The notes below the pieces were generated by a model, which saw nothing but the letters and a program-made list of their open reading frames with translations, was not told the origin of the DNA and searched no databases. The position numbers and the translations under genes were made by a program. This document shows, piece by piece, positions 1 through 29,901 of a stretch of 64,000 nucleotides of DNA; position 1 is the stretch's first letter; every line of letters begins with the position of its first letter. Origin of the DNA: a virus; the IMG/VR virus record IMGVR_UViG_3300025646_000015, positions 1 through 64,000 of that record, one strand, 5' to 3'.

Positions 1-531
1 AATTTCTAATGCGCTTGGCTTAAGTGATACGTTTGGCAAACTAGCTAAATCTTTTAGCGCTTCCAATTGACTTGCTCGTACATATTCACGTGTTGGAAAC
101 CAAAAGCGAATTGTTGGAAAGATTTGGCAAATCCTTTTCCATGCTTTGATATATACAACATTAAATAAATCTCCGCTGTCATGAACTCGAAAAAGTTTTG
201 TGTTTATGTTTTTAAGAGTTTTGCGGGTTCCGTCTTTCTTGTAATACTTTTTAAAGATTGCGCTTGCCATTGCTTTGACAAAAGTTTCTCCTTTGTCATT
301 TCTTAAACTATCTACAACAAAATCTGCTTTTTTCTGCAATGCATTCTTAGTGCCAGGAAATTGATAAAATCCTTTGCAGGCATAACAACTTGAACAAATA
401 AGTTTATCTAAATTATCTTTTGCTTTAGCTAAAAGAATTTTAGCCGCAGGACAAAATTTTAAGGCGGGAAGGTTAAAGCCAACGCAAGGCATCTTGCTTG
501 GTTCCGATAATAGTGTTGGTGTGTCGTTCAT
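1..531 (-). CDS. GP88-like phage protein (radical-SAM-like), partial, runs off the window
   Basis: Not in ORF track; translated by hand: MNDTPTLLSEPSKMPCVGFNLPALKFCP..ICSSCYACKG..FRVHDSGD..FWFPTRE. The Cys cluster plus HDSGD motif is typical of GP88. Confidence 0.75.
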   Translation of the reverse strand, partial: MNDTPTLLSEPSKMPCVGFNLPALKFCPAAKILLAKAKDNLDKLICSSCYACKGFYQFPGTKNALQKKADFVVDSLRNDKGETFVKAMASAIFKKYYKKDGTRKTLKNINTKLFRVHDSGDLFNVVYIKAWKRICQIFPTIRFWFPTREYVRASQLEALKDLASLPNVSLKPSALEI

Positions 532-573
532 AACCTTACATAACCATAAGATATAAATTAAGTCAAATTTTTT

Positions 574-756
574 TTAATCTTTTTTTAATGAATTTAAAAT
601 AGGTAAAATAGTTCTAGATTCATTTTTTTGTTTTGATTGAATAGTTTTGGCTAAAGCTAATGCCTGCGCTTCAGTTTTTACATTATCAATTAATTTATCA
701 AATATTCTAACATCTATCCAATTATCAAAATTTATATTTCTAATTATATGAATCAT
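574..756 (-). CDS. hypothetical protein
   Basis: ORF on the majority strand with an AGGAGG SD upstream. Confidence 0.6.
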   Translation of the reverse strand: MIHIIRNINFDNWIDVRIFDKLIDNVKTEAQALALAKTIQSKQKNESRTILPILNSLKKD

Positions 757-936
757 TTTATTTCCCTCCTATTTAATTTATTTCTGTTCTGCTTATAGTA
801 TAAGGAGAATGCTCTGTCAATCTATTTATTGATTCTTCTAATCCTCTTATTACAATTAGAATATATTCAAAGTTTCCTTGTATTCCCATTGGTTCGCCAT
901 TTTTAAGTATTTGAAACGTTTCCATAATTTTTCCTC

Positions 937-1125
937 CTATTTTATGAATTCTAAATCTTCCTGCATGGTAACAACTTTTGTTACTTGTGCAATTTCAAAC
1001 TCTTCCCATGGATCAAATCTAAGAATTGCTTCATCCTTAGAAAGAGCTTGTATCTTTGTTGAGTATTCATTTTCTCCATCAGAGTAAATAACGAGATAAT
1101 TTTTAATGTCTTGTGTTGTTGTCAT
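937..1125 (-). CDS. small protein of the (I/V)xAxSxxEA family
   Basis: KIQALSKDEA motif; TTGACT 28 nt upstream of the ATG. Confidence 0.65.
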   Translation of the reverse strand: MTTTQDIKNYLVIYSDGENEYSTKIQALSKDEAILRFDPWEEFEIAQVTKVVTMQEDLEFIK

Positions 1126-1167
1126 AACCTACATAACCATAGTAGTTAAACTAAGTCAAATAAAAAT

Positions 1168-1207
1168 GGAAGTTTTTTTGATAACGGAGAAAACTTCTAA
1201 AACTCCG
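1168..1207 (-). ncRNA. predicted H-type pseudoknot in a 3' UTR/intergenic region
   Basis: S1 CGGAG/CUCCG, S2 GAAGUUUU/AAAACUUC, A-rich loop 3. Confidence 0.4.
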
Positions 1208-1233
1208 ATGAACACCAACTAAGAAAACTTCTA

Positions 1234-1476
1234 CTAAATTCCGTACATCCTTTGGTACATATCAACATCCACACCATCTAATCCTCTAGGAATTCCTCTT
1301 TCCGAGTCTTCCATCAATCCATTTATAACGTCTCTAGCATTTTCTGCATCCATTGGCGCTAATTCATTTCTTGATTTAATTAGATTAACTTGTATTCCTT
1401 CTTTATTTATTATTACCTCTTCGTCTTCTTTTAATCTAAATTGTATATATTTAAGTGCTATATCTAAATCTTTCAT
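1234..1476 (-). CDS. hypothetical protein
   Basis: ORF track; TATAAT 7 nt before the ATG. Confidence 0.65.
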   Translation of the reverse strand: MKDLDIALKYIQFRLKEDEEVIINKEGIQVNLIKSRNELAPMDAENARDVINGLMEDSERGIPRGLDGVDVDMYQRMYGI

Positions 1477-1513
1477 ATTATTTATTATAATAAGATTATT
1501 TAGTTTATTCTAT

Positions 1514-1843
1514 TTAAAACTGCTGAATTATTACTCCGCCATTACTTAATCTAGGTAAAACTATTGTTTCATCTCTGAAGAAATCAAGAACCTCGTCATC
1601 ATCCTCAAATTCTTCATCCTCTAGTAAATGAGAATATTCTTGCTTTAATTCATTTAAATTAGAATACTCTGTGAAATCGCAACAAATTGAAATAACATCT
1701 AGCTCGATTTCTGATCCTGTGTCTGATTCTAACTCGGTTAGGAAATCAAATAAAGCGATCCTACCTTCTTCAGAGAAATTGCTTTCTCTATTCATTTCTG
1801 TAAATGCTCTTACGAAATCCCACTGTGATACTGTTTGGTACAT
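1514..1843 (-). CDS. acidic phage hypothetical protein
   Basis: ELDVISICCDFTEY; own TTGACG-17-TATATT-6-ATG promoter. Confidence 0.75.
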   Translation of the reverse strand: MYQTVSQWDFVRAFTEMNRESNFSEEGRIALFDFLTELESDTGSEIELDVISICCDFTEYSNLNELKQEYSHLLEDEEFEDDDEVLDFFRDETIVLPRLSNGGVIIQQF

Positions 1844-1878
1844 AATAATAATATAGTTTAGTTGTTTAGTTACGTCAA
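1844..1878 (-). promoter_or_regulatory. sigma70 promoter with the ATG at +1 (type example of at least 20 copies)
   Basis: TTGACG-N17-TATATT-N6-ATG, no SD. Confidence 0.8.
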
Positions 1879-1881
1879 GAA

Positions 1882-2097
1882 TTATCTGCCATTATTGCAA
1901 ACCACCCTGCTTCCAAGGGTGACAAATGCCTGTTGTAGTTGAAAATTAAAACCTAATGCTTGTAAAGCATCGGCATCTTCTGAGGTTATAGTTTTACGAC
2001 CTGTCAATCTTTGGATTGCATCTTTATGCTCTGATACAATGTAGAAGTGAGTTGTGCCGTAGTTGGTTTTTTCTTTGTAGAATATTGTTTTGTTCAT
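1882..2097 (-). CDS. hypothetical protein
   Basis: ORF track; TTGACT 29 nt upstream. Confidence 0.7.
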   Translation of the reverse strand: MNKTIFYKEKTNYGTTHFYIVSEHKDAIQRLTGRKTITSEDADALQALGFNFQLQQAFVTLGSRVVCNNGR

Positions 2098-2128
2098 AAT
2101 ACTAATAAAGCAAAATTTAATGTGTGAG

Positions 2129-2353
2129 TCAAATTAATTTTAATTTTTTTTTATCCTGCACAAAATACTGAGTAACCTTGCTTGGAAAATTTTCAAGAGC
2201 CATCAATCTCACTCCTTCGTTCTTGTAGATGCTCCACTCTGCTTGATCGTTGCTACCATAGTCTGCCCAACTATGTTCCTCATTGCCAACTAGCAAAAGA
2301 AAAGCATTTCTTGAAATTTCTACGGAATTATTAAAATTTGGTTCAATGTTCAT
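2129..2353 (-). CDS. hypothetical protein
   Basis: ORF track; TTGACG 29 nt upstream. Confidence 0.7.
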   Translation of the reverse strand: MNIEPNFNNSVEISRNAFLLLVGNEEHSWADYGSNDQAEWSIYKNEGVRLMALENFPSKVTQYFVQDKKKLKLI

Positions 2354-2414
2354 AATAGTAATAAAGCATATAGTTTAATCGGCGTCAAATAAAGTTTTAA
2401 TTTTTTTAAAGGCG

Positions 2415-2517
2415 TGCCATACGTGGCAGGAGTCGAACCTGCAAGAGGATAGTTGGCTCTGCAAAGCTCACCTCTCTTATCTCCCCTCAATTGCAGTTAA
2501 GGCAGAACACGTTGGCA
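2415..2517 (-). ncRNA. non-canonical tRNA-like cloverleaf RNA
   Basis: T-arm GCAGG-UUCGACU-CCUGC; terminal helix UGCCAACGUG/CACGU(A)UGGCA; two internal hairpins; promoter (TTGACA 2561-2566) and boxA-like element upstream. Confidence 0.7.
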
Positions 2518-2552
2518 TATATTAAAGAACTAAGATCAATAAACCATATAGT

Positions 2553-2789
2553 TTATTTGATGTCAAATAGTTTTTTCTTTTTTTCTAAATATTCTTCTCT
2601 TGATATTTTCCCACTAGCTAAAGCCATTTCATAACTTAATCTATTTAATTCAATTTCGATCACTAGCATCTTTCCTTCGTGATCTGGAGAAGGATTTATC
2701 ATCTCCAATACTCCATATGATTTAAATTCGTTGTATCTATTTATGAGATATTTCAATCTCTCCCTTGGTGTTATTTCTTCAATCTTCAT
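2553..2789 (-). CDS. hypothetical protein
   Basis: ORF track. Confidence 0.6.
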   Translation of the reverse strand: MKIEEITPRERLKYLINRYNEFKSYGVLEMINPSPDHEGKMLVIEIELNRLSYEMALASGKISREEYLEKKKKLFDIK

Positions 2790-2979
2790 ACCTATACAAA
2801 GGGAGTGAATTCTTATTTTTCCGTATTATTTTATAAAAAAATGAAATAATTTTAATAGTGCCCGCTTACCCGCCCGATACCAACCTGTTATGTACTAGAC
2901 TATTTTAACCAAAGGGTATCAAGTTTTATTTATACAATTTATTACGATTTGTGAAATTTTATTTAGTGTAAATACATTT

Positions 2980-3231
2980 GTGAGGTTATTAATTATTTTA
3001 TTTATTTTTATTTGCTCTTGTAATAATTCAAATAAATTAAAACCTAGCGATACTTTATTTAAAGAAGAAGATAAAAATTGGGAGAAGTTGTATGCTATTG
3101 AATTAGAACGCGCTTTATTTCATGAAGATGATATTGCCTTCTATTTCTTTTGGCCATATTACCTGCGTGAGCGTTATTTAAATAGAAACAAAAAAACCCC
3201 CCTCCCGAAGGAGGGGGGGTACCAACATTAA
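2980..3231 (+). CDS. putative lipoprotein
   Basis: Hydrophobic leader with ICSC lipobox; GTGTAA motif 8 nt before the GTG. Confidence 0.55.
   Translation: MRLLIILFIFICSCNNSNKLKPSDTLFKEEDKNWEKLYAIELERALFHEDDIAFYFFWPYYLRERYLNRNKKTPLPKEGGYQH
3190..3219 (-). terminator. intrinsic terminator
   Basis: CCCCCCUCC-UUCG-GGAGGGGGG followed by a U tract, after the DUF932 gene. Confidence 0.85.
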
Positions 3232-3240
3232 CCAAACAAA

Positions 3241-4122: not shown

Positions 4123-4176
4123 AATCTATACCAATACCTTAATCAGATAACTAAGTGAAGTCAAATTTTTTTTTAA

Positions 4177-5108: not shown

Positions 5109-5498
5109 TTAAAATGAAAAAACTTTTCTACCATCTAAAAGAACTGCATCAGCACTATGAACTGAACTACCACTCTCTTTCTCGTAGAAGAATTCGTTTT
5201 TATATGGGTTGTATGTAACTTCTGTTCCAAAGTTCTCGTTTAATATAGTATTAAACAACTCACTTATGTATCCTTTAATAAAAGCATGAACATTCTTTCT
5301 CCTTTCTTTAATTACTTTTTCCCTGCCCGCTTGATTTACAATAAATTCGCAATCAAATAATTTAATTAGATTAGTGTGAGCTTTAACTAATCCATCCTGC
5401 TGAACACTCCAACATTGTTTATGTAGATTACGATAAACTTTAATTGGTTTATTTGGATTAATTTTATATCTTGGGTCGTTAGCTTTTGTTGATTTCAT
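5109..5498 (-). CDS. conserved phage hypothetical protein (start revised to 5498)
   Basis: VYRNLHKQCWSV..GREKVIKERRKNVHAF; TTGACA 29 nt upstream of ATG 5498. Confidence 0.75.
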   Translation of the reverse strand: MKSTKANDPRYKINPNKPIKVYRNLHKQCWSVQQDGLVKAHTNLIKLFDCEFIVNQAGREKVIKERRKNVHAFIKGYISELFNTILNENFGTEVTYNPYKNEFFYEKESGSSVHSADAVLLDGRKVFSF

Positions 5499-5542
5499 AT
5501 ACCAACTATTACATAGGTAGTGATTCATGTCAAATAAAATAC

Positions 5543-5587
5543 AAAAAAAATCCTCCCCCGAGCCAAAAGGAAGAACTCAGAGGAGGA
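5543..5587 (-). terminator. intrinsic terminator of the ncRNA unit
   Basis: UCCUCCUCUGAG/CUCGGGGGAGGA stem followed by U8. Confidence 0.8.
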
Positions 5588-5617
5588 AGGAGGGGATAAA
5601 CCACGGAATAAAATAGA

Positions 5618-5794
5618 TGTGGGGAGGGACTACTGAATACCCTCAACTTTTGGCGTGAACATCAGTTCAATGTGTAACCTACTCGCACTACACTTGGATT
5701 GGACATCCTACCTCAGACATTTGTCCATCAGCACTCCACCATAGAGAAGCATATACCTTATCTCGAACACGAAGAGACATTCGGGTCACCCACA
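5618..5794 (-). ncRNA. structured RNA, probably manA motif
   Basis: GC-rich, no credible ORF; closing UGUGGG/CCCACA and 3' GAGGG-UAUUCAGUAGU-CCCUC hairpin. Resemblance to manA is from memory. Confidence 0.6.
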
Positions 5795-5878
5795 GGAAGG
5801 ATTATAAGCCCTTCCAAATTGGATGGAGCAAGTCGGCGCCCGATACTCAGTTGCCAACTTATTTGCTCCAAATTAAAA

Positions 5879-5961
5879 TGTTAAAGATCAATTTATTTGA
5901 TTTGATTGAGTTTGTTTCTCAATTATTTATCTATTATATACTATTATTTAATATTTGTCAA
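5879..5961 (-). promoter_or_regulatory. consensus sigma70 promoter plus boxA
   Basis: TTGACA(5956-61)-N17-TATAAT(5933-38); TGATCTTTAACA at 5879-5890. Confidence 0.8.
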
Positions 5962-6162: not shown

Positions 6163-6308
6163 TCTACCGACTCCTCTTCTAATTTTTGTAAATCATATAT
6201 TAAATCGCCTAATGCTTCTAACGCAGATTGAATATCATTTTCTGCCCATTTAATATTTTGTTCGTAAGTATTTTTGATTTCCGCTAATAGTTCTTTATTT
6301 TCTTTCAT
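6147..6308 (-). CDS. 53-aa protein (not in track)
   Basis: MKENKELLAEIK..; TTGACA 29 nt upstream. Confidence 0.65.
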   Translation of the reverse strand: MKENKELLAEIKNTYEQNIKWAENDIQSALEALGDLIYDLQKLEEESVECDVF

Positions 6309-6397
6309 ACCACAACAATACTAGAATAAGTTAGATATGTCAAATCTTTTTAAAATTATTTTAAAATTAATTAAATTATTTTAAATTCTGCTAGATG

Positions 6398-9482: not shown

Positions 9483-9709
9483 TTACTTCCCCCATTTATA
9501 TTATCTAATTCGTTTTGTTTCTCCTGTTCTCGCATTGCATTTACAACTATTGTGTCAAGCATATTGCTAATTGGACTTGTATCTTCAACATATATGTCAA
9601 AATATCGACCTGCTAATTGTGCCATTTGTTCTACACATTCATTAAATCTATAATTATATCCACCATTTGAGGGAACTTGAAATGTAATTGGGTCTGTTTG
9701 ATAATTCAT
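9479..9709 (-). CDS. hypothetical protein
   Basis: TTGACG 29 nt upstream. Confidence 0.7.
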   Translation of the reverse strand: MNYQTDPITFQVPSNGGYNYRFNECVEQMAQLAGRYFDIYVEDTSPISNMLDTIVVNAMREQEKQNELDNINGGSK

Positions 9710-9718
9710 AATAACAAA

Positions 9719-10054
9719 TTAGCATACAAGATTCTGCGCGTCAACACCTTTTTTAATTTTTTCCATTACTTGGTCAAGAAAAACATTTGAATAAGTGTCT
9801 CCATTACCCCCTAAGTTCCAACGAGTTACGAGTTCGGGATCGTTTACGTTGGATTTCCAATCGTAAATAGTTACAATGTCGCCCAAATGATTTTGTAGCA
9901 CCCACTCACATAATGTTTTATCTCCTTTACCAAATGTAGGCGATCCAAATAAATTAATTAAATTAAAATAGCTTGTTTCGATTGTGTCTTGGTAACAGGT
10001 TCTATTTGTTTTATTAAATACTTCGTCCGATCTTAATGTTTTCATATTATTCAT
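9719..10054 (-). CDS. conserved phage hypothetical protein
   Basis: FGSP..DKTLCEW..TIYDWK..WNLGG. Confidence 0.75.
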   Translation of the reverse strand: MNNMKTLRSDEVFNKTNRTCYQDTIETSYFNLINLFGSPTFGKGDKTLCEWVLQNHLGDIVTIYDWKSNVNDPELVTRWNLGGNGDTYSNVFLDQVMEKIKKGVDAQNLVC

Positions 10055-10456: not shown

Positions 10457-10682
10457 TTAATTTTTCGTATTCATCAATTAAATCTTCTAATTCCCATTCT
10501 GTATAGTCTTTGAGCAATTTAATGTTCTGAAATGCTCCATCTATATAAGTTGCTCCACCCATACCATCGTTACATATTTCTATACCTTTGATATTTGTTT
10601 GACATTGATAACCAACACCTCTATTCGTTTTAAAATACCTTACTCTTGTTACTTTCATAATTCTAAATTTGTTTGTAATCAT
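10449..10682 (-). CDS. hypothetical protein
   Basis: NDGMGGAT motif; TTGACA 29 nt upstream. Confidence 0.7.
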   Translation of the reverse strand: MITNKFRIMKVTRVRYFKTNRGVGYQCQTNIKGIEICNDGMGGATYIDGAFQNIKLLKDYTEWELEDLIDEYEKLNG

Positions 10683-10809
10683 ATTTCAAATATGATTGAG
10701 GAAATTAAAATTGTCAACACCAAAAATACAAAAAGCTCAAGATAGAAATAGCCATAATCAGAATTAATTCGATTAAATTTTTCAACGATCCAAAATAGTT
10801 TCTTGATTT

Positions 10810-11077: not shown

Positions 11078-11209
11078 TCATTTATTCCACTCTATATCTT
11101 CATAAGTGATTTCTTCATTAAATACAAAATTATACAAACTAACTAATTCTTCTATTCCACAATCAGCAATGTAATCTTGTAATTTGACTATAATTTGTGT
11201 TTCCTTCAT
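11078..11209 (-). CDS. 43-aa protein (not in track)
   Basis: MKETQIIVKLQDYIADCG..; TTGACA 29 nt upstream. Confidence 0.6.
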   Translation of the reverse strand: MKETQIIVKLQDYIADCGIEELVSLYNFVFNEEITYEDIEWNK

Positions 11210-11320
11210 GTCGTTAAAGTAGGATAATTTGCATGATATGTCAAGCATTTTAATGGTTTTTTCATAAAAAGTTGATGTTTATATAGTTAAACAATAATTT
11301 TGCATCTTTTATCATGCTTT

Positions 11321-11554
11321 TTATTGCAATCTGCCCCCTGCATCTAATACATTGCGAAGACAACTAGATTGACCTGCTCGCGCGGTAACTTTCTTGGCAT
11401 GAGCAAATGCACTAGGATCAGCAAAAGTTTGCATGACCATAGTAGATTTGTCAAGATAAACATTCATGCCCTTGCGAGGAATAGAGTTGGCAACCTTGAT
11501 GCCATGATCTATTGACTTCTGTATATCTGCTAAAAATGCTTCTGCCGTATTCAT
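11321..11554 (-). CDS. hypothetical protein
   Basis: TTGACA 29 nt upstream. Confidence 0.7.
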   Translation of the reverse strand: MNTAEAFLADIQKSIDHGIKVANSIPRKGMNVYLDKSTMVMQTFADPSAFAHAKKVTARAGQSSCLRNVLDAGGRLQ

Positions 11555-11640
11555 AATTATATCTTCGCATATCCCTTTCTACTTGTCAAATAAAATTTTA
11601 AAAAACTTTATTTAATTATGTTAAATTTAAATTAATTAAT

Positions 11641-12042
11641 TTAAATACCATACAACCATTCAATTACATTTCTATCATCATCTTCTTGCTTTTGAATTGC
11701 ATCATACAAGTTTTCCCAATGTTGTTCTTCAAAAAATTTTATAAAACCTTGATGCTCTTTGTTGGAGTAATCAAATGATTTTTCTGCTTCAAACCAATTA
11801 TTTGTATATTCATCCTTTAATTCAAAATACAATGTTATTTTGTATATCTTGAAGTCTTGAAGTATGGCATAGTCGGGCAAGACATGAGTTCCACCTGCTC
11901 CACCTGTGCAATGAGTCCCTGCATAATCAAAAGAATCATTGTCAATGCACCAATTCGCATCTCCCTCGATATTTGCATAATACTCTATGCCATTTTTATT
12001 AAATTCAAATCCGTCTAGCTCAAATAAAACATTTTCTTTCAT
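11641..12042 (-). CDS. hypothetical protein
   Basis: DSFDYAGTHCT motif; TTGACA-17-TAAGGT-6-ATG. Confidence 0.75.
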   Translation of the reverse strand: MKENVLFELDGFEFNKNGIEYYANIEGDANWCIDNDSFDYAGTHCTGGAGGTHVLPDYAILQDFKIYKITLYFELKDEYTNNWFEAEKSFDYSNKEHQGFIKFFEEQHWENLYDAIQKQEDDDRNVIEWLYGI

Positions 12043-12093
12043 AACTTAACCTTACTTTACTTTTTTTCGCTTGTCAAATATTTTTTAAAAAAA

Positions 12094-13197
12094 TTAATCC
12101 CAACTATACCATTGCTTTGTTTTATATGAATAAAAGTATCTTGGGTTTGCCGAACCTAGCTCATAATAATGCCAAGTTGAGGTTTCATGGACATAAACCA
12201 ATGGATAACGCTCATTATCTGTGTAAATCCAACCCTTATTAGGATCATATATCCAACCATTCACAAAAGTAGTAAGAGAATTTTTCTTTTCATTCGCTAA
12301 TTTTAATTCTAATTCTGTAATAATGTTAGACAATTCAACTACTTCATTTTCAAGATCAGAAACTTGATTGTATAAACTATTTGTGGGCAAATCGGGCAAA
12401 TAGAATTCATCAGACGCGCGATGCAACTCGGATTCATTTAAAACTCTATTATAAACTTTAAAAGAATCTAATAATCCGACAAACCCTTCTGAGTCGCCAC
12501 TTTTACCAATAAAGAATTTTGTGTTATCATAATTAAATTTTCCATAATTTTGAAGACTTGAGGTTCTTAAAAGAACACCATTTACATAAAAATTATAATT
12601 AGAATTTTTTAAGTCCAATGTGAGAACAATATTAGTCCATTCAATATTTGGCAAACTTCCTACTGAATTATATATTAATCCAAGTAATGATGAATTCATT
12701 CTAAAGGTATTTTGCTTCAAGAATAAAGTGTACGGATAGGCAAATATACTTGCGTCACCTACTCCTCTACCAAATACAAAATTATTTCTAGGAATGAATT
12801 GTTCTGTCGAAAATGGATTTGGGTCGGGAAATTGCAAGTCCGCTTTTACCCAAAAATCAAAAGAAAAACCATCTTGAAAATCAAAAACATCAACACCATT
12901 AGAGAATGTATCTACCTCGATACAAGTATCACCATCAAGACTTAAAGCAGATTCAATACTATTAAATCTGTCAGATACAAATTTGCCCCCATGCAATGTA
13001 ACGTCTAAATTAGACGCTAAATCATTTAATTTATTAAAATATGTCAAATCAAAAGGTAAATCAAGAACTAAACCTTCTTTTGAATATTCGGGGACAGAAC
13101 CACCAAAGATAACATCTACTTCGGGCGGAGAAACTCTTTCTGCAAAAACTAAACTAGCAATTAAAGCAGAAGACCACAATGTATTTTTAATTTTCAT
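12094..13197 (-). CDS. secreted LamG/concanavalin-like protein with coiled coil and aromatic C-terminal domain
   Basis: Signal peptide; FSFDFWVK, WTNIVLT, FYVNG, FVGLLDSFKVYNRVL; C-terminal GWIYDPNKGWIY..YPLVY. Confidence 0.85.
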   Translation of the reverse strand: MKIKNTLWSSALIASLVFAERVSPPEVDVIFGGSVPEYSKEGLVLDLPFDLTYFNKLNDLASNLDVTLHGGKFVSDRFNSIESALSLDGDTCIEVDTFSNGVDVFDFQDGFSFDFWVKADLQFPDPNPFSTEQFIPRNNFVFGRGVGDASIFAYPYTLFLKQNTFRMNSSLLGLIYNSVGSLPNIEWTNIVLTLDLKNSNYNFYVNGVLLRTSSLQNYGKFNYDNTKFFIGKSGDSEGFVGLLDSFKVYNRVLNESELHRASDEFYLPDLPTNSLYNQVSDLENEVVELSNIITELELKLANEKKNSLTTFVNGWIYDPNKGWIYTDNERYPLVYVHETSTWHYYELGSANPRYFYSYKTKQWYSWD

Positions 13198-13308
13198 AAT
13201 AATAAATTAACTCACTTTCTAACGTTTGTCAAATTTTTTTTCAAATATCTTTGTTTAGCAAATATGCTCCTAGACACATTAATGCAAATATCAAAAAAAG
13301 CCACATTT

Positions 13309-17385: not shown

Positions 17386-17847
17386 TCAAACTTTTTTTAA
17401 ATTTTTTTTAAATAAAGTGAATTCGCACTTTGGGCAACGATATGTGGTATGTCTTCTTAACCTGTGCATACCATACTCTATCCCGCAATGGCAAGTATCA
17501 TTATACTTATAATAATTCTTTGGTTTAATTAAATCTGTTTTAGAACAACTTTTGGGAATAGCACCAATTTCTTGACAAACTCTTTTCCATAATAATCCAT
17601 GACCCATGCCTAATTTACCATGACGAACATAAGCTAAACCATGAGCAATTTCATGCAATATAGTATCTTTAACATCTTCTATGTCATTTAACTCAACATA
17701 CCACTTGCTTAATTTAATTAATTTATTTTTAAAACTACAAGTACCAAGGGCATTTTTTTTATTTTGCCAACGAAATAACCATTCATCGGGCAAATCATGT
17801 TTTGCCATATATTTATAAACTAAACTTTCCGCTTCCCTTGCATTCAT
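17386..17847 (-). CDS. SprT-like zinc metalloprotease (start revised to 17847)
   Basis: ILHEIAH, GHGLLWK, C-terminal CxC/CPKC; TTGACA 29 nt upstream. Confidence 0.9.
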   Translation of the reverse strand: MNAREAESLVYKYMAKHDLPDEWLFRWQNKKNALGTCSFKNKLIKLSKWYVELNDIEDVKDTILHEIAHGLAYVRHGKLGMGHGLLWKRVCQEIGAIPKSCSKTDLIKPKNYYKYNDTCHCGIEYGMHRLRRHTTYRCPKCEFTLFKKNLKKV

Positions 17848-18268
17848 AAAAACACAATAATGTAACAATTAGGCAATGTCAAACTTTTTTTATTCTCCAC
17901 CAAAAACCACAAATGCTAAAAACAAAAGAAATGCGATACTACCAAGTAAAAAACAGGAAAGCTCAATAAAATCTGTTATATTCATTTTTGATGAGATGGT
18001 TTATTTCTTGAGGTTAGTTCTTGCTCTATGTCAAGGAGAATCTGATCTGCTAGTTGGATTTGATTGTAATTATGTTTGCTAATTTCAACTCCATTATTTA
18101 GTTCATCAAGAATTAATTCTGCTGAACTAATTATTTGATATAATAAATATTCTTCTTGATTTTGATTTATTTTATTATTCATAACTTTTAATTTATATGA
18201 TTTTGCAAACTCTCTATCCGATCTATGATTGGATGCAATTAATAAATCATCTCTGTAATATATTGGCA

Positions 18269-18916: not shown

Positions 18917-19048
18917 TTATTGTTTATCTAAGTGTTTTCTGACTATTTCACAAGCCTTTAAAATAACTAAATGTTCATCCGTTCTTTCTCCAATGGCAGA
19001 AACCTCTGCTTCATTGACGACTAATTCTAATGCTTCTTCTAATGTCAT
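18917..19048 (-). CDS. 43-aa protein (not in track)
   Basis: MTLEEALELVVNEAEV..; TTGACA 29 nt upstream. Confidence 0.6.
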   Translation of the reverse strand: MTLEEALELVVNEAEVSAIGERTDEHLVILKACEIVRKHLDKQ

Positions 19049-19101
19049 AATAGTACCCTAACAAATTAATTTACGCTTGTCAAACTTTTTTTAAATTTTT
19101 T

Positions 19102-21052
19102 TTAATTTTCTCCAAACATATTATTCCATTCATCTTTAATTTCAATAGCAGGAACTGCATCTAAACCTTCAGAACCATATAATAATAAATTAATAATTTC
19201 TTCTGTACTCATGTTCATAGCTTCCTGCTCTGCAAGATCATATCTCATCTCGTCTACTGATGGTTCGTGATCTCTAATTTGTCTTTCAGTTGTTCTCATA
19301 ATTTTAATCTCCTTCTCTTGTTGCTACTACCAATAACTTAACATCATCTTCATTTCCTGTCAAACCAAAAAGTTCAATAACATGATGAAAAATCTCGCCA
19401 TCTTCGGGCGAGACACTAATCCATGAGCAGTTTTGTTCTTCGCCATCAATATCATTGACAACAACATCCCATTCGTGTTCAAGTAGTCTAGCTTTTTGAT
19501 ATTTGGTCAATTTCATTTTCGCATTCTAATTTTTCTAATTGTTTATAAAGTGAATCTAATTGTTTATTTACTTTTTTAATCTCAGTAAAATTATTAGGTT
19601 CTTGAGAGTCTAAATAATCTGATTGAATTTCAAGCAATCTAATCTTTTTATTTAATTCTATAATTTCGTCTGTCATATTTATATATTTATTATTCATTAA
19701 TTGAATCCCAATTAATTTCTGTTTGTTTTATTTTCCATGCGATTTCTCCATTTGTGGGGTCAACGTATTCAACATTGAAATCACAATCGTCAAGAGTTTT
19801 ATATGGATCGTACTCACGCACTATTTGCTCTGCTTCATCTCGACTTTCTGCTTCGACATAAAAGCAATTAATTATTTTAATTCCTACGCAATATTCTTTT
19901 TTCATTCTTCTTCCTTTAATACTTTCTTTTTTAATTGTTTTAACGATTCGTAAACTGATTTCCAAGAATCTTTACCTTTCTCCATCTCGGAAATGTATTC
20001 CAAGACTTCATCTATACATTGCGAAACAGGAACTTTAACTCTTAACATTTTCATCTTTTGCTTTGTATTTGAGGGACTCATCACTATTTAAATCACAAGC
20101 AATTTGTATATTAGTAACATTATGCCATGCTTCGTCTGCATAGATAGTTCCATCAGCGTTAAGACTTGGTTGTTTAAACCATTTGCGAGACTTTTTATAA
20201 GAACCAATATGTCTTTCAATTATCTCTATGTCATCTTTAATGCAATCCAAACGATGTCTAAGTTCAAGATTTTCTTTTAGCAATCTCTCTAAATTATCTT
20301 TATGAATTTTATGCTCTTGCTTTGTTAAATAAGTACGTGCGCACATTTCTTCTGAGAATGATTTTTTTTCAGCCAATTTCTTTTTTAGTTTATAATTCTC
20401 TTTTTCCAAATTTTCATTTTCTTTAAGTAAAGATAATTTTTTGTTTACTTCAATTAATTTATTTTCATAAAATTTCTTGATCGAATTTTCGTAAGTTGGG
20501 TAGTCGTCTCCTATTATTTCTTTCATTCTCTTACCTTATATTGATTGTTTTAAGTTGTCAAGTTTTATTTCAAATCTTTTAATATATCATCTAACTGCTC
20601 TAATGTTATTACTTCGCTTTTATCCATATCTTTGCAAAATTCAGAAAATTTAATTTTATTATATTCGAGAATATTGTAGTAGGATTTTTGTGCGTCGTCA
20701 AGCATTAATCTCAATGTTTGCAATAAATCTTCAGCACTTTCTCCAATTATTTCGGGCTTTTCAGTATGAGCGCATATTTCACCATCGTCATTATACATGA
20801 CTTCATAAAGACCATAAGTGTCTTTGTCTTTAATTATACGATAGTTCCACATTACATTTCGTAAGTTTGCTCTAAATCTGCATTAGCATAATCTTCACTT
20901 GTCATGTCGCACAAATCACCAAAGATATTAATTCCACCTTCTTCAACTAATATTTCACGCGCTTCCTCTTCTGTTTCAGCTTGAATCTCATATACCATTG
21001 TTGCAGGTACAGAGAATACAAAATATTTATCTTTTTTCTTTTGAGTCTTCAT
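19102..21052 (-). other. run of eight small hypothetical genes (19102-19299, 19304-19516, 19488-19697, 19690-19905, 19902-20084, 20035-20526, 20565-20852, 20852-21052)
   Basis: Abutting/overlapping ORFs; 20565..20852 starts with the common phage WNYRI motif. Confidence 0.65.
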
Positions 21053-21330: not shown

Positions 21331-22637
21331 TTATACCCTTTTTGATTCTGCTTCTTCTCTTGTCATCTCGCCCCTAATATATGCACCGAAATCATCATCA
21401 TTTAAATGAGAAGTGTCAATAGGTTTGACTCCAAACTCTCCGATTAATTCAAGTTCTTTAACTCTTTGATTGAGTCTTTGATTCATCTGATCTTTTAACT
21501 CAAACATTCGATCTACAATATCTGCAATAAGAGGATACTCTCCAAGTTCATAAAGGCGAGTGTCTAGCCCACTTTCAGAATCGTGGATACTTTTTAACTT
21601 CATTATTTCTTCAGCTTTATTCATTTTCTTTTTCCTTTTCTCTTTCTATTAAGATTTGAATTAATTTCTTTGTATCTTCCTCTGTGAGATCATTCAATAA
21701 ATCATAAATACATTCGTATTCATCTTGAGTTACAATTTCTTCAGATTTATTCATGTCTATACATTATAAGTCTTTATTTAAATTGTCAAGCTCGGAATCA
21801 TTTAATTCCATTGAATCTTCTTCGGATTCTTTTTCTTTCTCTTCTATATGAGTTATTTCTGCATTTTGTTTCCATGCCTTGCTGATTTCCCAATCAGCAT
21901 CTACTTCTTCAAATACTCTTGTTTCTGCTTCGTCTTGCGATTCTGCATCAATAAAGTAAGTGCGGTAAGTTGTGCTTGCTATTTCAATTTCGTATCTTTT
22001 TATTTCTCCCATTGTATTTCTCCGTTTTGATATGTAAAAATATATTCAGAGTCATCCATATCTATTTCGTGATATTTATTATTCTCTGTTGGTGGATTAA
22101 CTCCATAAAGAGAAAGACCAAATGACCAATTACTAGAATCGGTATATTCATATTCACCCGAACCATCTTGCTTGACTTGACAAAAATCATCACCGCAATA
22201 AATATTGTAGTCTATGAAATTTCCATCTTCTAATTCATAACTATTCCAATAATCAAAATTATCTCCATCAGTTTTGACTTCGGGATCAGCAATAACTTTT
22301 TTAATATGAGTTAATGCTAAATCTGCAATCTTTAATTTTACTGCTTTACTTACTTTACTTAGTTCCATAATTCTTCCTCATAGTTTTCGCTTTTATATAT
22401 TGGAGTGTACTCACCCATGTAAGCACCCTTTGTGTTGAATTCAAAAAATTCTATGGCATCATCCATACTCATGCCGTCTTCCATGTATATTTGTATGATA
22501 GCCTCTTCGCTATATACGACTCTTTTATTTTCATAACCAATGATGGCTGAATCAAACCTTGATCTTGGCTCAAGTACGATTGATCTCGGTTCATCTCTAT
22601 TATCACTTTCTATTTGATCTACTAAATCTTGATTCAT
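21331..22637 (-). other. run of small hypothetical genes (21331-21624, 21617-21754, 21764-22012, 22000-22368, 22359-22637)
   Basis: ORF track plus one manual ORF; 22359..22637 has DAIEFFEFNTKGAYMGEYTP. Confidence 0.65.
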
Positions 22638-22732
22638 AAGACAACAATAGCAGAATACTGATTGCCTGTCAATAATTATTTTATTTTTTTTTTAAAAATT
22701 AGATTCTCCTGTATTAATGTGTAATATTAGTT

Positions 22733-25150: not shown

Positions 25151-25414
25151 TTATTCACCTTTCTTTTCGTTATTTAAGTAGTTTTGATCGAAAATATCGT
25201 CTTCATCGAAGGCTCGATGTTCTCGCTTAAAGTTTTCATACTCAACCCATAACTTGTCGTACCAAGTTTGGTGAAGTTGACTCATGCCAATTAACATATT
25301 TAATAACTCGTCATCTGTATATTGTTTGGGAGAATCTCCTATCGCATAGATAACTGCATCAATGTCGTCTTGGATATTATTTAAATTGCCTATTGCTTCT
25401 TCTAAATTATTCAT
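25151..25414 (-). CDS. hypothetical protein
   Basis: ORF track. Confidence 0.65.
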   Translation of the reverse strand: MNNLEEAIGNLNNIQDDIDAVIYAIGDSPKQYTDDELLNMLIGMSQLHQTWYDKLWVEYENFKREHRAFDEDDIFDQNYLNNEKKGE

Positions 25415-25904
25415 GGTATTTAACTATATATGTTTTAAACGATCTGTCAACTAAAATGTCGTGGATCATTGAATTAATTATTCTTTTGCTTCCACCCGCA
25501 AGACCACAAGAGATACCATAAGGTAGGGCGAAAGTAGAAGTTTTATCATCATGCTCATCTTTCCATTCAATGTCGTCAGCAACATTGTATAAAGCCTTGT
25601 AGAATGCTTCATAATCAACTTGTCTACCTTTCCCAATATAACTTTGCGTATACATATTATATATACCCTTAGTTTGAGTGGCATCAGTCCATGCGAAACT
25701 ATACCAACCTAATTGATTGTCCCCTTCCATCATTGCATGGCAATCAGCACTATATGCTTCGGGGTAAGTGTGCTTTATATCAAGAGCAATACCTGCACCC
25801 ATTACATTTTGAGTATTACAAGAATGAGCAATGTAATCAAACCCATGAAAGTGCATCTTGAGCAAATTGCCATCAATTATTTCTATTTTTTCAGTAGCTA
25901 TCAT
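25407..25904 (-). CDS. macro domain (ADP-ribose processing) protein
   Basis: IAHSCN..MGAGIA..IYNMYTQ..PYGISCGLAGG. Confidence 0.9.
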   Translation of the reverse strand: MIATEKIEIIDGNLLKMHFHGFDYIAHSCNTQNVMGAGIALDIKHTYPEAYSADCHAMMEGDNQLGWYSFAWTDATQTKGIYNMYTQSYIGKGRQVDYEAFYKALYNVADDIEWKDEHDDKTSTFALPYGISCGLAGGSKRIINSMIHDILVDRSFKTYIVKYHE

Positions 25905-25925
25905 GTCTATACATTAAATGAGGTT

Positions 25926-26453
25926 TTAAGATTTGTCAACTTTTAATTTTGTTTTTCCATCTTCTTCGTCAATAAAAACATCTACAACCCTGCAATGATG
26001 TGGATCAGCGATGAAAATTTTTGGATCACCCGAATCATTTGTGACTCTAGCCAAACCAACAGGTTTGACTTCAATACATTCTAGCAAGTCTTTTCCGTTA
26101 TGTTCGCGCATATCATAAGAATGTGGGTACAATCCATCTTCTCTATTTAAATAGCAAATAATTCTGCCGTATTTATTTTTGTAAGAAATGTAAGAACTAA
26201 TATCAAAAGATTTCTTGGCGAATAATTTATTACGAGGAATGTAGTATTTGCACTTATCTTTTTTGACATTGAAAATTTTATGTACACCAAAGGCATCTTC
26301 AATAGGTTCTAGTGTTTTATGGTGAACGAGCATACATTCAAACGTGGGATTAGCTTTACTATCCTCTCTGATATTTAGAATTTCACCAATTCGCTTTTTG
26401 AGGCGAAATGATTTTTCTTTGATGTGATCTCCAACTTTAAAAGAATGTTTCAT
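25926..26453 (-). CDS. hypothetical protein
   Basis: TTGACA 29 nt upstream. Confidence 0.7.
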   Translation of the reverse strand: MKHSFKVGDHIKEKSFRLKKRIGEILNIREDSKANPTFECMLVHHKTLEPIEDAFGVHKIFNVKKDKCKYYIPRNKLFAKKSFDISSYISYKNKYGRIICYLNREDGLYPHSYDMREHNGKDLLECIEVKPVGLARVTNDSGDPKIFIADPHHCRVVDVFIDEEDGKTKLKVDKS

Positions 26454-26497
26454 GTAAACAACTTAAACTAAAAATTCTGATTTGTCAAATAAAAATG

Positions 26498-27281: not shown

Positions 27282-27711
27282 TAAACTCTCTCAAGAATTT
27301 TTTGTTCTTAATTCTTATCTCCTTATTTAGTTTTCTTTCAAATTCAAATGTGACAACTCCACCTTTAACATGAAAAGTAGAATTTTGATTATTTTTAATA
27401 TATTTAGGATCAACACTTTGAAATATTTCAACACCAAGGAAATGTTTGTGATTTTGTTTTGTGTCGTGAAAATAATATTTCTTGCATGGTTTTCCTTTCA
27501 TAAAGGGGTCAATATGAATTTGATATACATAATATTTACCATTAGGAAATTCGGGATAAGTAGATTTGTAACTATCTCTAGTATGCAGAATGAGTTGCTT
27601 ACCGCGTTCTTTTATTATGCCTTTTTTGTCAAAACTAGACTTTTTACTTACTAAGTAATAAGCACAATGTTCCGATTCGTATGGTTGTGTTTTTGTTTTG
27701 ATTGTTTTCAA
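27274..27711 (-). CDS. hypothetical protein
   Basis: ORF track. Confidence 0.6.
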   Translation of the reverse strand: MKTIKTKTQPYESEHCAYYLVSKKSSFDKKGIIKERGKQLILHTRDSYKSTYPEFPNGKYYVYQIHIDPFMKGKPCKKYYFHDTKQNHKHFLGVEIFQSVDPKYIKNNQNSTFHVKGGVVTFEFERKLNKEIRIKNKKFLREFNG

Positions 27712-27819
27712 AGTTTTCTATCGTTATTCCAAAGATTAAATATACTAATACCTATCCCTACCACTATAAAAACCAAAGCAAGAATACCATCCCATCTTAA
27801 ACCTAAATCGAATAAAAAC

Positions 27820-28071
27820 TCAATCATTATTAAATAATTTATCCCTAACTAATTTGAAAGCATATTCATCTTGGAATCTACAATTTTCAATCATTTCATC
27901 TAATTGTTCTTTTAACATTCTATGGCAATCTTTAATTCCTTGGTCGTACCCCGCGTCACGATCATCCATTATTGTTTTACTCATTTTACGAGACAAACTT
28001 TCTTGAGCGTCAGAGTAACCTTTTTCGTATCCTCTAGTAAAATATATATCTTGTTTTATTTGTTCGTTCAT
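27820..28071 (-). CDS. hypothetical protein
   Basis: GYEKG/GYDQG repeats. Confidence 0.65.
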   Translation of the reverse strand: MNEQIKQDIYFTRGYEKGYSDAQESLSRKMSKTIMDDRDAGYDQGIKDCHRMLKEQLDEMIENCRFQDEYAFKLVRDKLFNND

Positions 28072-28084
28072 TGTATTTAAATAT

Positions 28085-28216
28085 TTGCACGGAGAGTATC
28101 CGTGACTAACTCCGATATAGCAGTAATCGAATTACTTACTAGTCCTTTTCCGCTGATCAGGCATGGTAGATTCGTAGGAATAGAATCAGAAGGAGGTGAA
28201 CCTATATATTTCATTC
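28085..28216 (-). ncRNA. candidate structured RNA/leader with an anti-SD-like segment
   Basis: TTGACA-17-CATAAT promoter; hairpins GAUUC/GAAUC, AGUAAU/AUUACU, CACGGA/UCCGUG; GGUUCACCUCCUU. Confidence 0.45.
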
Positions 28217-28374
28217 GTCAACATTATGCCATATTTTTCCTTCTGTGTCAAGCTCAGAACTCCACAACATCAACTTTTTATAAACAGGATATAAAACTAT
28301 TCCCATCCATTCAAAATACAATAAATTACTAATTGTATCACCAATATAAAAAAGTATTTTGCTTAAAAGTAATT

Positions 28375-28569
28375 TCACTTAAGTGATTTAGATTTAATAG
28401 AAGCAATTATACACATAGCACCATGCTCATTAGCAGTCATTAATGCTTCTCCATTAGTCATCATAATTTTCCACATTTTTTTACCCATGTGGTCGCGTTC
28501 TTTTACATATATCACTTGCTTTGGGTTAATGTGATATTTTTCTTCATTAGCATCTTCTATTAATATCAT
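28375..28569 (-). CDS. hypothetical protein
   Basis: HINPKQVIYV. Confidence 0.65.
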   Translation of the reverse strand: MILIEDANEEKYHINPKQVIYVKERDHMGKKMWKIMMTNGEALMTANEHGAMCIIASIKSKSLK

Positions 28570-28871
28570 TGTTTGTACATATTATTTTGAAATTCGGATA
28601 TTTTTCTGTTTTTTTCTTCTTCTAATTGCTCGTGATATTCAAAAGCCCTTGAATTATCTCTTATATGACCCTGCATATTGCCTTGATTTTCCTCGTCAGT
28701 AAACCATTGGTAGTCTAAATCAAAAATACTATCAACATTAGATGGATGATATCCTGCACTAACAAGCAAACCTTTGAATTGTTCTGCAAGTTCGTAAACA
28801 TCTGTGCCATCAAATGAATCATCTGATTCGACGCTATAAGTTTTATTGTGTAATGTAAGTGATAGTTTCAT
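28566..28871 (-). CDS. hypothetical protein
   Basis: ORF track; coupled to uvsE. Confidence 0.65.
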   Translation of the reverse strand: MKLSLTLHNKTYSVESDDSFDGTDVYELAEQFKGLLVSAGYHPSNVDSIFDLDYQWFTDEENQGNMQGHIRDNSRAFEYHEQLEEEKNRKISEFQNNMYKQ

Positions 28872-29866
28872 AATTTCAATTGTTGTAACAATGCAATAGC
28901 TTTATCTTTCCCCTTTACTTCGCATTCCCACTTGGCAGGTTTATCTGTTTCAATAGCAATGTGAGGTGGGAAATTTCCTAGAGCAAAATATTCTGCATGA
29001 GCGCGAGGCTTTTCGGGAGTTCCTTCTGACCAATGAAATACAGGAGCAATAAAGTTTTCGTCACCATTATCTTGATTGACCCATGTATATGCACAACGTT
29101 CAGCTTGAAATGAGACACTTTCGACTTCTGATGGATTACAAAAATCATGAAGATTGTCGTAACAAACAGGAATATTTATTTTATGTGTTTCAAATAAGTA
29201 GTCGCTAAATTTAATACAATTATCTACATTAAAGAAACCTTTATCTTCGTTCTCGATAGTAAGGCGATTATAAACTCCTGCATTACACATAGCAAGATTG
29301 CGAAAGAATCTATTAGCAACAATTTCCAAAGTTTCATCCATCTTGGGAGTATAATTAACATGAATGTTCATTGGAGCAGTATGATCTTGAGGCAATCCCA
29401 TTTTATCAAGCACACTAGCTTGCATATTTAATTCTCCAATAGTTCTACGAACCGCATCAGTATTCGTTGACGCGAGAACATTGAATTGATCGGGGTGAGA
29501 ACCCATGCTAATACCAAGAGTCTTGGCAACAATACCTACTTGTCGCAATCCTTGGTTAATTTCTTCAATATCGGGCAACTCTTCAAGATCAATTTCCAAA
29601 GTTTCATCGGTAACAAGAGGAAAAAGAGCGCTACTAACACGATAATGCCCAATGTTTGACTTAGCACAATGATGGACAATAGATTCAGTAACAACAACAT
29701 TATGCAAAATTCTATTAGATAACTCTTTAATTGCTTCATCTCTACCTTCTGTATTACACAAATCATTAAAACGTTTGCGTGTCATTGTGCGGAAAGAATA
29801 TTCATTATTGTCTTTGTCTTTGAGTTGCTCGCTAATGCAAGTTAAACCTAGTATTCTATTTGTCAT
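28868..29866 (-). CDS. uvsE: UV damage endonuclease
   Basis: LGLTCI, YRVSSALFP, HPDQFNVLAS, MNIH, LTIENED, YDNLH, HWSE, RAHA, EVKGKDKA. Confidence 0.95.
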   Translation of the reverse strand: MTNRILGLTCISEQLKDKDNNEYSFRTMTRKRFNDLCNTEGRDEAIKELSNRILHNVVVTESIVHHCAKSNIGHYRVSSALFPLVTDETLEIDLEELPDIEEINQGLRQVGIVAKTLGISMGSHPDQFNVLASTNTDAVRRTIGELNMQASVLDKMGLPQDHTAPMNIHVNYTPKMDETLEIVANRFFRNLAMCNAGVYNRLTIENEDKGFFNVDNCIKFSDYLFETHKINIPVCYDNLHDFCNPSEVESVSFQAERCAYTWVNQDNGDENFIAPVFHWSEGTPEKPRAHAEYFALGNFPPHIAIETDKPAKWECEVKGKDKAIALLQQLKL

Positions 29867-29901
29867 ACTTTATGAATCGCACAAAATGTGTGTTTTGTCA
29901 A

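What the first reader, a model, noticed from the sequence alone, without database searches (positions are those of the whole stretch)
529..29901. One-gene-one-promoter leaderless transcriptome: TTGAC exactly 29 nt before at least 20 ATGs
Seen: TTGAC(A/T/G)-N29-ATG on the minus strand at starts 531, 1843, 2097, 2353, 5498, 6308, 9709, 10682, 11209, 11554, 12042, 13197, 17847, 19048, 20526, 21754, 22637, 25904, 26453 and 29866 (28 nt at 1125, 30 nt at 37346). The 29 nt parse as a 17-nt spacer, a -10 hexamer (mostly TAnnnT) and 6 nt, with no SD. Known: sigma70 starts ~7 nt after the -10, so the A of ATG is +1. Inference: these early genes are separately transcribed leaderless modules. The rule corrects several starts and reveals ORFs under 60 aa.
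Basis: partly seen in the sequence, partly recalled or inferred. Interest (0 to 1): 0.8.

Follow-up and report, generated by a model that had tools for sequence, protein, structure and literature searches.

The report
Leaderless early promoters in uncultured phage
In this uncultured, AT-rich phage about two dozen bacterial-type promoters sit at a fixed distance from an ATG, so the messenger RNAs should begin at the start codon with no ribosome-binding leader; this is a well-supported new example of a known way of expressing genes, with no RNA data yet.

Summary
TTGACN-N29-ATG occurs 25 times on the minus strand of the window, against 1.45 +/- 1.3 in dinucleotide shuffles. All 20 listed starts are exact. 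The geometry is -35, 17 nt, -10, 6 nt, ATG.

Promoter logic holds:
- AT-rich upstream tracts.
- An extended -10 TGn wherever TAnnnT is missing.
- A pyrimidine at -1 in 23/24.
- ATG in all cases and no SD.

The spacing is not a copied cassette. The spacers are unrelated, the gene products are not paralogues, and orthologues in related IMG/VR phages keep the exact spacing while the sequence between the boxes diverges. Three related whole records show the same distance peak.

The whole phage family lacks SD motifs. Genes without a promoter mostly overlap the preceding gene.

"One gene, one promoter" is overstated: about 22 such promoters serve about 77 genes, and strong terminators are rare.

A phage sigma factor and a second motif (GTGTAAT, 5-8 nt before the start codon) suggest that later genes are near-leaderless too.

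This is a new member of a known kind (Thermus phages phiYS40 and Lalka27a; Deinococcus-Thermus and Actinobacteria). This scan has noted the same layout in many other phage genomes. The host is unknown and no transcript ends have been mapped.

The parts
529..566 (-). leaderless promoter plus ATG (start 531, 177+ aa ORF running off the window): TTGACT-17-TGG TTATGT-6-ATG
   Evidence: the extended -10 TGn compensates a weak hexamer
1123..1159 (-). promoter plus ATG (start 1125, 62 aa), total spacing one nt shorter
1841..1878 (-). leaderless promoter plus ATG (start 1843, 109 aa): TTGACG-17-TATATT-6-ATG
2095..2132 (-). leaderless promoter plus ATG (start 2097, 71 aa), extended -10
2351..2388 (-). 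leaderless promoter plus ATG (start 2353, 74 aa), extended -10
5496..5533 (-). leaderless promoter plus ATG (start 5498, 129 aa; the longest-ORF start at 5528 lies inside the -35 box); preceded by a hairpin and T-run at 5578-5548
   Evidence: G003 orthologue 93% identical, same spacing
6306..6343 (-). leaderless promoter plus ATG (start 6308, 53 aa)
9707..9744 (-). leaderless promoter plus ATG (start 9709, 76 aa)
10680..10717 (-). leaderless promoter plus ATG (start 10682, 77 aa): -10 CATATT
11207..11244 (-). leaderless promoter plus ATG (start 11209, 43 aa; the longest-ORF start at 11248 lies upstream of the -35 box)
   Evidence: G003 orthologue 91% identical, same spacing
11552..11589 (-). 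leaderless promoter plus ATG (start 11554, 77 aa), extended -10
   Evidence: same spacing in G002 and G003
12040..12077 (-). leaderless promoter plus ATG (start 12042, 133 aa)
13195..13232 (-). leaderless promoter plus ATG (start 13197, 367 aa, LamG-like protein)
17845..17882 (-). leaderless promoter plus ATG (start 17847, 153 aa; the TTG at 17868 lies inside the promoter)
   Evidence: G003 and G004 orthologues have the same spacing and different spacer sequence
19046..19083 (-). leaderless promoter plus ATG (start 19048, 43 aa)
   Evidence: conserved small ORF, same spacing in G003 and G004
20524..20561 (-). leaderless promoter plus ATG (start 20526, 163 aa)
21752..21789 (-). leaderless promoter plus ATG (start 21754, 45 aa)
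22635..22672 (-). leaderless promoter plus ATG (start 22637, 92 aa)
   Evidence: G003 orthologue also one nt longer
25902..25939 (-). leaderless promoter plus ATG (start 25904, 165 aa, Macro-domain protein)
26451..26488 (-). leaderless promoter plus ATG (start 26453, 175 aa), directly downstream of tRNA-Thr
29864..29901 (-). leaderless promoter plus ATG (start 29866, 332 aa, UvdE endonuclease)
   Evidence: G004 same spacing; G002 and G003 one nt longer
37344..37382 (-). promoter plus ATG (start 37346, 89 aa), one nt longer here; its G003 and G004 orthologues have the standard spacing
59705..59742 (-). candidate internal promoter with full features (A-tract, TTGACA-17-TGC GATAAT-6-ATG), in frame inside the 366-aa ORF 59549-60649; status open
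45493..46047 (-). phage sigma factor (Sigma70_r2, weak r4; phrog_1740), downstream of a leadered TTGACA promoter at 46481; candidate reader of the GTGTAAT class

Best explanation
These are functional host sigma70-type promoters of the phage's early, small-gene region. Each has an AT-rich UP-like tract, TTGACA, a 17-nt spacer, a TAnnnT or TGn-extended -10, and a 6-nt discriminator. They are placed so that RNA polymerase starts on the A of the ATG. Each such transcript is therefore leaderless, and the first cistron is translated from a 5'-terminal AUG without a Shine-Dalgarno sequence. Downstream cistrons, which also lack SD, mostly overlap the stop of the preceding gene and are probably read by termination-reinitiation. 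Because strong terminators are few, the promoters probably produce nested, co-terminal transcripts rather than insulated one-gene units. Shown here: the geometry, its statistical excess, the promoter-logic features, the absence of SD, and conservation of the spacing in relatives. Inferred: the transcription start position, leaderless translation and early timing.
For: There are 25 hits at the single distance against 1.45 expected, with a maximum of 8 at any distance in 200 shuffles. All 24 starts are ATG, and 16 of the 20 listed are the first start codon of their ORF. Position -1 is a pyrimidine in 23/24 against 45/88 at other gene starts (p=3e-5), and +4 is A in 23/24. Six of 7 promoters without TAnnnT carry the extended -10 TG, against 3 of 13 with it (p=0.017). 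SD-like 4-mers occur in 0/24 leaderless genes and 9/88 other genes, against a background of 8.5%. Across the family the figure is 6-13% against 8-12% internal background. Among strictly defined promoter candidates, the gap from the -10 to the first ORF-opening ATG is exactly 6 nt in 14/32. Almost none fall at 3-5 or 8-10 nt, and there is a separate tail from 11 nt upwards. The 17-nt spacers are 36.5% identical pairwise against 28.6% expected, and the gene products are not paralogues. Orthologues in G003, G004 and G002 keep the spacing while the spacer and discriminator sequences differ. The distance peak recurs in relatives: G003 21, G002 20 (plus 15 at +1) and G004 11, against controls of 0-1. 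Clusters of matches also appear in fragmentary relatives. From established knowledge of sigma70 RNA polymerase, the start site lies about 7 nt after the -10 with a pyrimidine(-1)/purine(+1) preference. Leaderless transcripts have been mapped experimentally in Thermus phages phiYS40 and Lalka27a (PMC3594737; bioRxiv 10.64898/2026.04.20.719267).
Against: No transcript 5' end or translation data exist for this uncultured phage, and the host and its RNA polymerase and ribosome preferences are unknown. Start-site choice can slip by 1-2 nt. Relative G002 prefers a 7-nt gap, so some mRNAs may carry a 1-nt leader. The 5' 36 nt are unstructured, but no more so than other gene starts in this phage, so that feature is not specific. 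About a dozen TTGACA promoters in the same region do have leaders.
Confidence: 0.72

Rival explanations
1. The promoters are real, but transcription starts 1-3 nt away from the A. The mRNAs then have very short leaders, or lose the A so that translation begins at a downstream codon. The fixed spacing would reflect a promoter-clearance or regulatory constraint rather than leaderless translation.
For: Some units have gaps of 5, 7 or 9 nt (1125, 25414, 37346, 24987). G002 favours a 7-nt gap. Start-site selection by sigma70 polymerase is known to range over positions 6-9 after the -10.
Against: The spike is at exactly 6 nt in G000, G003 and G004, with almost nothing at neighbouring gaps. The pyrimidine at -1 and A at +1 fit the preferred start dinucleotide. 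The ATGs open the ORFs, and orthologue alignments begin at residue 1.
Confidence: 0.13
2. The constant geometry is inherited, not selected. A promoter-plus-ATG cassette spread by recombination, as PeSL cassettes of T4-type phages do, so identical spacing is common descent.
For: Orthologous genes sometimes have and sometimes lack the promoter in relatives (g12042, g20526, g25904, g26453), which shows modular gain and loss. A few promoter pairs share the -10 and discriminator (21754/25904, 2097/2353).
Against: The spacers are near random relative to each other (36.5% against 28.6% expected) and the gene products are not paralogues. Orthologues diverge in sequence yet keep the spacing to the nucleotide. 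There is no shared stem-loop and no SD, unlike PeSLs (PMC2839356).
Confidence: 0.06
3. The motif is not a promoter but a site for a phage DNA-binding protein, or another signal that merely resembles the sigma70 consensus.
For: None specific. The -10 hexamers are G/T-rich at positions 4-5 (TAAGGT, TATTGT, TAATGT), which departs from TATAAT.
Against: The full two-box architecture, the 17-nt spacing, the A-tract upstream and the TGn compensation are all promoter hallmarks. The orientation always matches the downstream gene.
Confidence: 0.03

Closest known systems
Leaderless transcription units of Thermus phages phiYS40 and Lalka27a
   Same: Most phage transcripts begin with the A or G of the initiator codon. 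The -10-type element lies a few nt upstream of the ORF, there is no SD, and the host RNA polymerase is used (PMC3594737; bioRxiv 10.64898/2026.04.20.719267).
   Different: In the Thermus phages the layout was mapped experimentally, mainly for middle and late promoters without a -35, in a host phylum where leaderless genes are common. Here it is inferred from sequence, for full -35/-10 promoters of small early-type genes, in an AT-rich uncultured phage family with an unknown host. No IF3-, S1- or S21-like phage gene was found.
-10 motif adjacent to ORFs in Deinococcus-Thermus and Actinobacteria (cellular leaderless genes)
   Same: TAnnnT lies about 6-7 nt before the start codon and there is no SD. 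In silico the signal appears as a positional peak (PMC12340547, PMC3160421).
   Different: Those are chromosomal genes of GC-rich hosts, often with a weak or absent -35. Here a strong TTGACA -35 and an UP-like tract accompany every site, in a phage of about 31% GC.
PeSL (promoter-early stem-loop) cassettes of T4-type phages RB49 and phi1
   Same: Many strong sigma70-like promoters with AT-rich upstream tracts are scattered among small ORFan early genes, with modular gain and loss between relatives (PMC2839356).
   Different: PeSLs contain a stem-loop terminator and end in a Shine-Dalgarno sequence before the ATG, and they are conserved over about 100 bp. Here there is no SD, hardly any stem-loops and no conserved spacer sequence.
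Lambda cI mRNA from PRM and other single leaderless phage mRNAs
   Same: A 5'-terminal AUG is translated without a leader (own knowledge; reviewed in PMC9031893).
   Different: Those are isolated cases within SD-using genomes. Here about 24 units follow the rule in a genome that is SD-free throughout.

Membership tests
Leaderless genes (-10 element abutting the start codon) | A -10-like element ends about 6-7 nt upstream of the start codon, seen as a positional peak | tested here: met
   The gap is exactly 6 nt in 20 listed sites, and in 14/32 strict promoter candidates, with empty neighbouring gaps
Leaderless genes (-10 element abutting the start codon) | No Shine-Dalgarno sequence, because there is no room for a leader | tested here: met
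   0/24 have an SD-like 4-mer
Leaderless genes (-10 element abutting the start codon) | The transcript 5' end is mapped at the first base of the start codon | not testable with these tools
   No RNA data are available and the phage is uncultured
Leaderless genes (-10 element abutting the start codon) | The start codon is AUG (a strong requirement for a 5'-terminal start in most bacteria) | tested here: met
   24/24 are ATG
Sigma70-type (housekeeping sigma) promoters | -35 TTGACA, spacer of 17 +/- 1, -10 TAnnnT or extended TGn, optional AT-rich UP element | tested here: met
   The alignment and information content peak at the -35, the -10 T/A/T positions and the upstream A-tract. TGn compensates weak hexamers
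Sigma70-type (housekeeping sigma) promoters | Recognition and initiation by the host holoenzyme | not testable with these tools
PeSL cassettes (Arbiol et al. 2010) | A stem-loop terminator is part of each cassette | tested here: not met
   Only 2 strong intrinsic terminators lie on the minus strand in 1-38 kb, plus a few weaker ones; only the 5533 promoter has an adjacent hairpin
PeSL cassettes (Arbiol et al. 2010) | A Shine-Dalgarno sequence lies between the -10 and the ATG | tested here: not met
   Only 6 nt separate them and there is no SD; the PeSL definition was read in PMC2839356
PeSL cassettes (Arbiol et al. 2010) | A conserved sequence of about 100 bp that can serve as a recombination substrate | tested here: not met
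   Spacers are 36.5% identical against 28.6% expected

The most novel reading that the evidence does not exclude
In this phage family the promoter doubles as the ribosome entry signal. With no SD anywhere, a gene would be translated only if it starts at an RNA 5' end (leaderless) or overlaps the gene before it. The phage would exploit or enforce this by biasing host ribosomes towards 5'-terminal AUGs, as phiYS40 is reported to do through IF2 and IF3 levels, so that phage messages outcompete SD-dependent host messages. The second promoter class (GTGTAAT, read by the phage sigma) would extend the same rule to later genes.
Probability: 0.2. Interest if true: 0.6.

Novelty: new member of a known kind. 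Interest (0 to 1): 0.36.

Why it matters
If the mRNAs are leaderless, gene starts in this and related uncultured phages can be set by promoter geometry. This corrects four starts here and validates 43-53-aa ORFs that gene callers drop. It also shows that systematic leaderless expression is not limited to Thermus phages or GC-rich hosts: it also occurs in an AT-rich, wholly SD-free phage family from environmental samples. The sharp split between 0-nt leaders and leaders of 11 nt or more, together with the gene overlaps, gives a testable picture of how an SD-free genome organises translation. It does not reveal a new mechanism, and this scan has already recorded the same layout in many other phage genomes.

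Tried and rejected
- The literal pattern TTGAC-N29-ATG gave only chance-level hits.
- The generic promoter scan is uninformative in this AT-rich DNA: 110 found against 110.7 expected.
- Cultured relatives were not found. Megablast of 20 kb and tblastn of the 856-aa protein found nothing in the phage collection. The DnaE-type polymerase and NrdA gave only distant hits of 47% identity or less, scattered over hosts.
- Host identification failed. The one genome-contig scan, with ClpC, returned three uninformative gut MAG hits. The protein atlas gave mixed phyla. A porin-like protein and the NrdA hits only hint at a Gram-negative host.
- No phage-encoded S21, IF3 or S1 was found.
- The copied-cassette idea was rejected, as was PeSL membership.
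- 5' structure as a specific leaderless feature was rejected. The 5' ends are unstructured, but other gene starts are equally so.
- The 'anti-SD mimic RNA' at 28085-28251 does not fold better than shuffles (z=0.18) and is not conserved in relatives. A 45-aa ORF starts 8 nt after its -10.


Full report
**Setting.** The window is the first 64 kb of a 101,268-bp IMG/VR virus record, classed as linear and estimated 74% complete. It has about 31% GC, and nearly all genes lie on the minus strand. It has no close cultured relative. It encodes a DnaE-type DNA polymerase, DnaB, primase, a UvsX-like recombinase, NrdAB, ClpC, a tmRNA and two tRNAs. It also encodes a sigma factor at 45493-46047.

**The observation.** Counted from the end of TTGAC, ATG occurs 25 times at exactly 30 nt on the minus strand of the window, which equals hexamer + 29 nt.
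- Other distances give 1-10 hits and the plus strand gives 1.
- In 200 dinucleotide-preserving shuffles the count at that distance averaged 1.45 (sd 1.3). No distance in any shuffle exceeded 8.
- Four further d=30 hits (3837, 33716, 36732, 44217) have no -10-like hexamer, lie inside ORFs, and match the expected background.
- 59707 has all promoter features but lies in frame inside a 366-aa ORF.

**Are they promoters?** Aligning the sites shows information peaks at TTGAC(A) and at positions 1, 2 and 6 of the -10, plus an A-rich tract at about -38 to -55 and nothing in the spacer.
- Thirteen of 20 hexamers are TAnnnT.
- Six of the seven that are not carry the extended -10 TG at -15/-14, against 3 of the 13 that are (p=0.017). 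This compensation is expected only if RNA polymerase reads these sites.
- Position -1 is a pyrimidine in 23/24 against 45/88 at other gene starts (p=3e-5).
- The start codon is ATG in 24/24.
- The next base is A in 23/24.

From established knowledge of sigma70 polymerase, initiation lies about 7 nt after the -10 with a Y(-1)R(+1) preference. A 6-nt discriminator therefore puts +1 on the A of the ATG.

**Selected, not copied.**
- The 17-nt spacers are only 36.5% identical pairwise (28.6% expected from composition), and the gene products show no paralogy.
- A DNA-polymerase search retrieved 24 related IMG/VR loci at 41-68% identity.
- Three related whole records show the same peak: G003 21, G002 20 (with 15 more at +1) and G004 11, against reversed-pattern controls of 0-1.
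- Fragmentary relatives show clusters of matches where an early-type region enters the contig.
- Orthologues of g17847, g19048, g11554, g22637, g29866 and g37346 keep the spacing to the nucleotide, or within one nt, although spacer, -10 and discriminator sequences differ. Protein alignments begin at residue 1.
- Several orthologues lack the promoter and sit inside operons, so promoters are gained and lost in a modular way.
- With a strict promoter definition, the gap from the -10 to the first ORF-opening ATG is exactly 6 nt in 14/32 candidates in this record. It is almost never 3-5 or 8-10 nt, and there is a separate tail from 11 nt upwards. G002 prefers 7 nt.

**Translation context.**
- SD-like 4-mers occur upstream of 0/24 leaderless starts and 9/88 other starts, which is the background rate of 8.5%.
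- The same holds for the three relatives: 6-13% against 8-12% internal background. The family is effectively SD-free.
- All gene starts are A-rich and unstructured. The first 36 nt fold at -0.67 kcal/mol for leaderless genes, -1.29 for other starts and -2.99 for internal windows.
- In 1-38 kb my crude gene map has about 77 minus-strand genes. About 22 start at a leaderless promoter, 24 overlap the upstream gene, and the rest follow gaps, some with leadered, SD-less TTGACA promoters.
- Only two strong intrinsic terminators were found there, at 34407-34375 and 3218-3197, plus a few weaker ones.

The picture is therefore nested transcripts with many internal 5' ends, not one insulated promoter per gene.

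**Other promoter class.** GTGTA(A/T) lies 12-17 nt before the start codon of about a dozen larger genes, including NrdA and proteins of 648, 693, 390 and 338 aa.
- Read as GTG + TAATAT, the start codon follows the hexamer by 5-8 nt, so these would also be leaderless or nearly so.
- They lack a -35, and the phage sigma is the natural candidate reader.
I only confirm its position.

**Comparison with what is known.**
- Mapped leaderless transcription is documented for Thermus phages phiYS40 (review PMC3594737) and Lalka27a (bioRxiv 10.64898/2026.04.20.719267).
- The '-10 next to the ORF' architecture is documented for Deinococcus-Thermus (PMC12340547) and, in silico, for Actinobacteria and others (PMC3160421).
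- PeSL cassettes resemble these units in distribution, but they contain a stem-loop and an SD (PMC2839356), and both features fail here.
- This scan already holds many notes of the same layout in other phage genomes, including one genome related to this one.

I therefore file it as a new member of a known kind. It is well supported by sequence and comparative evidence and unsupported by RNA data.

**Limits.**
- The host is unknown.
- My gene calls are crude: longest ORFs chosen greedily.
- 'Early' timing is inferred from promoter type and gene content.

Noticed in passing
window 45493-46047 (-): A phage-encoded sigma factor (Sigma70_r2 at 40 bits, weak r4, phrog_1740) lies downstream of a leadered TTGACA-17-TAAGAT promoter at 46481. 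It is a likely reader of the GTGTAAT promoter class.
   Followed up: partly
window 2966(+), 22719(+), 40371(-), 57745(+); genome 75292, 79245, 84438, 88924, 93113, 98999 (-), 99027, 100240 (+): The GTGTA(A/T) motif lies 12-17 nt before start codons of larger genes. Read as GTG+TAATAT it leaves 5-8 nt to the start codon, so this class would also be leaderless or nearly so. Three plus-strand cases start with GTG.
   Followed up: partly
window 5548-5961 (-): A consensus promoter (TTGACA-17-TATAAT at 5961-5933) is followed by about 380 nt without a convincing ORF, ending at a hairpin and T-run (5578-5548). This is a candidate non-coding RNA, with no Rfam match.
   Followed up: no
window 28072-28251 (-): After the promoter TTGACA-17-CATAAT, a 45-aa ORF (28214-28077) starts 8 nt after the -10, and its codons contain the 16S-tail-like GGTTCACCTCCTT. 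The RNA folds no better than shuffles (z=0.18), and the stretch is not conserved in relatives G002-G004.
   Followed up: partly
window 59705-59742 (-): A complete leaderless-type promoter (A-tract, TTGACA, TGC GATAAT, 6 nt, ATG) lies in frame inside the 366-aa ORF 59549-60649. It could give a 52-aa C-terminal product, or the ORF may be two genes.
   Followed up: no
promoter -10 hexamers, window and relatives G002-G004: Leaderless promoters have G at -10 position 5 (TAAGGT, TATTGT, TAATGT, TAGGGT) in 15/31 cases, against 7/39 for leadered promoters (p=0.009). Leadered ones are closer to TATAAT or TAAAAT. This is unexplained.
   Followed up: partly
window 34711-35352 (-): A 213-aa protein matches Gram-negative porin (Porin_4, 31 bits) and a beta-barrel DUF. 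This is a hint that the host is diderm.
   Followed up: no
window 25407-25904 (-) and 28868-29866 (-): Two leaderless units encode recognisable enzymes: a Macro-domain protein and a UvdE UV-endonuclease. The class is therefore not limited to ORFans.
   Followed up: no
G001 (163 kb, called 100% complete) versus G004: G001 shares sequence with G004 but has only 6 matches to the pattern. G004's cluster of leaderless promoters (86-97 kb) lies beyond the point where G001 ends, so the early regions differ or G001 is not complete.
   Followed up: no
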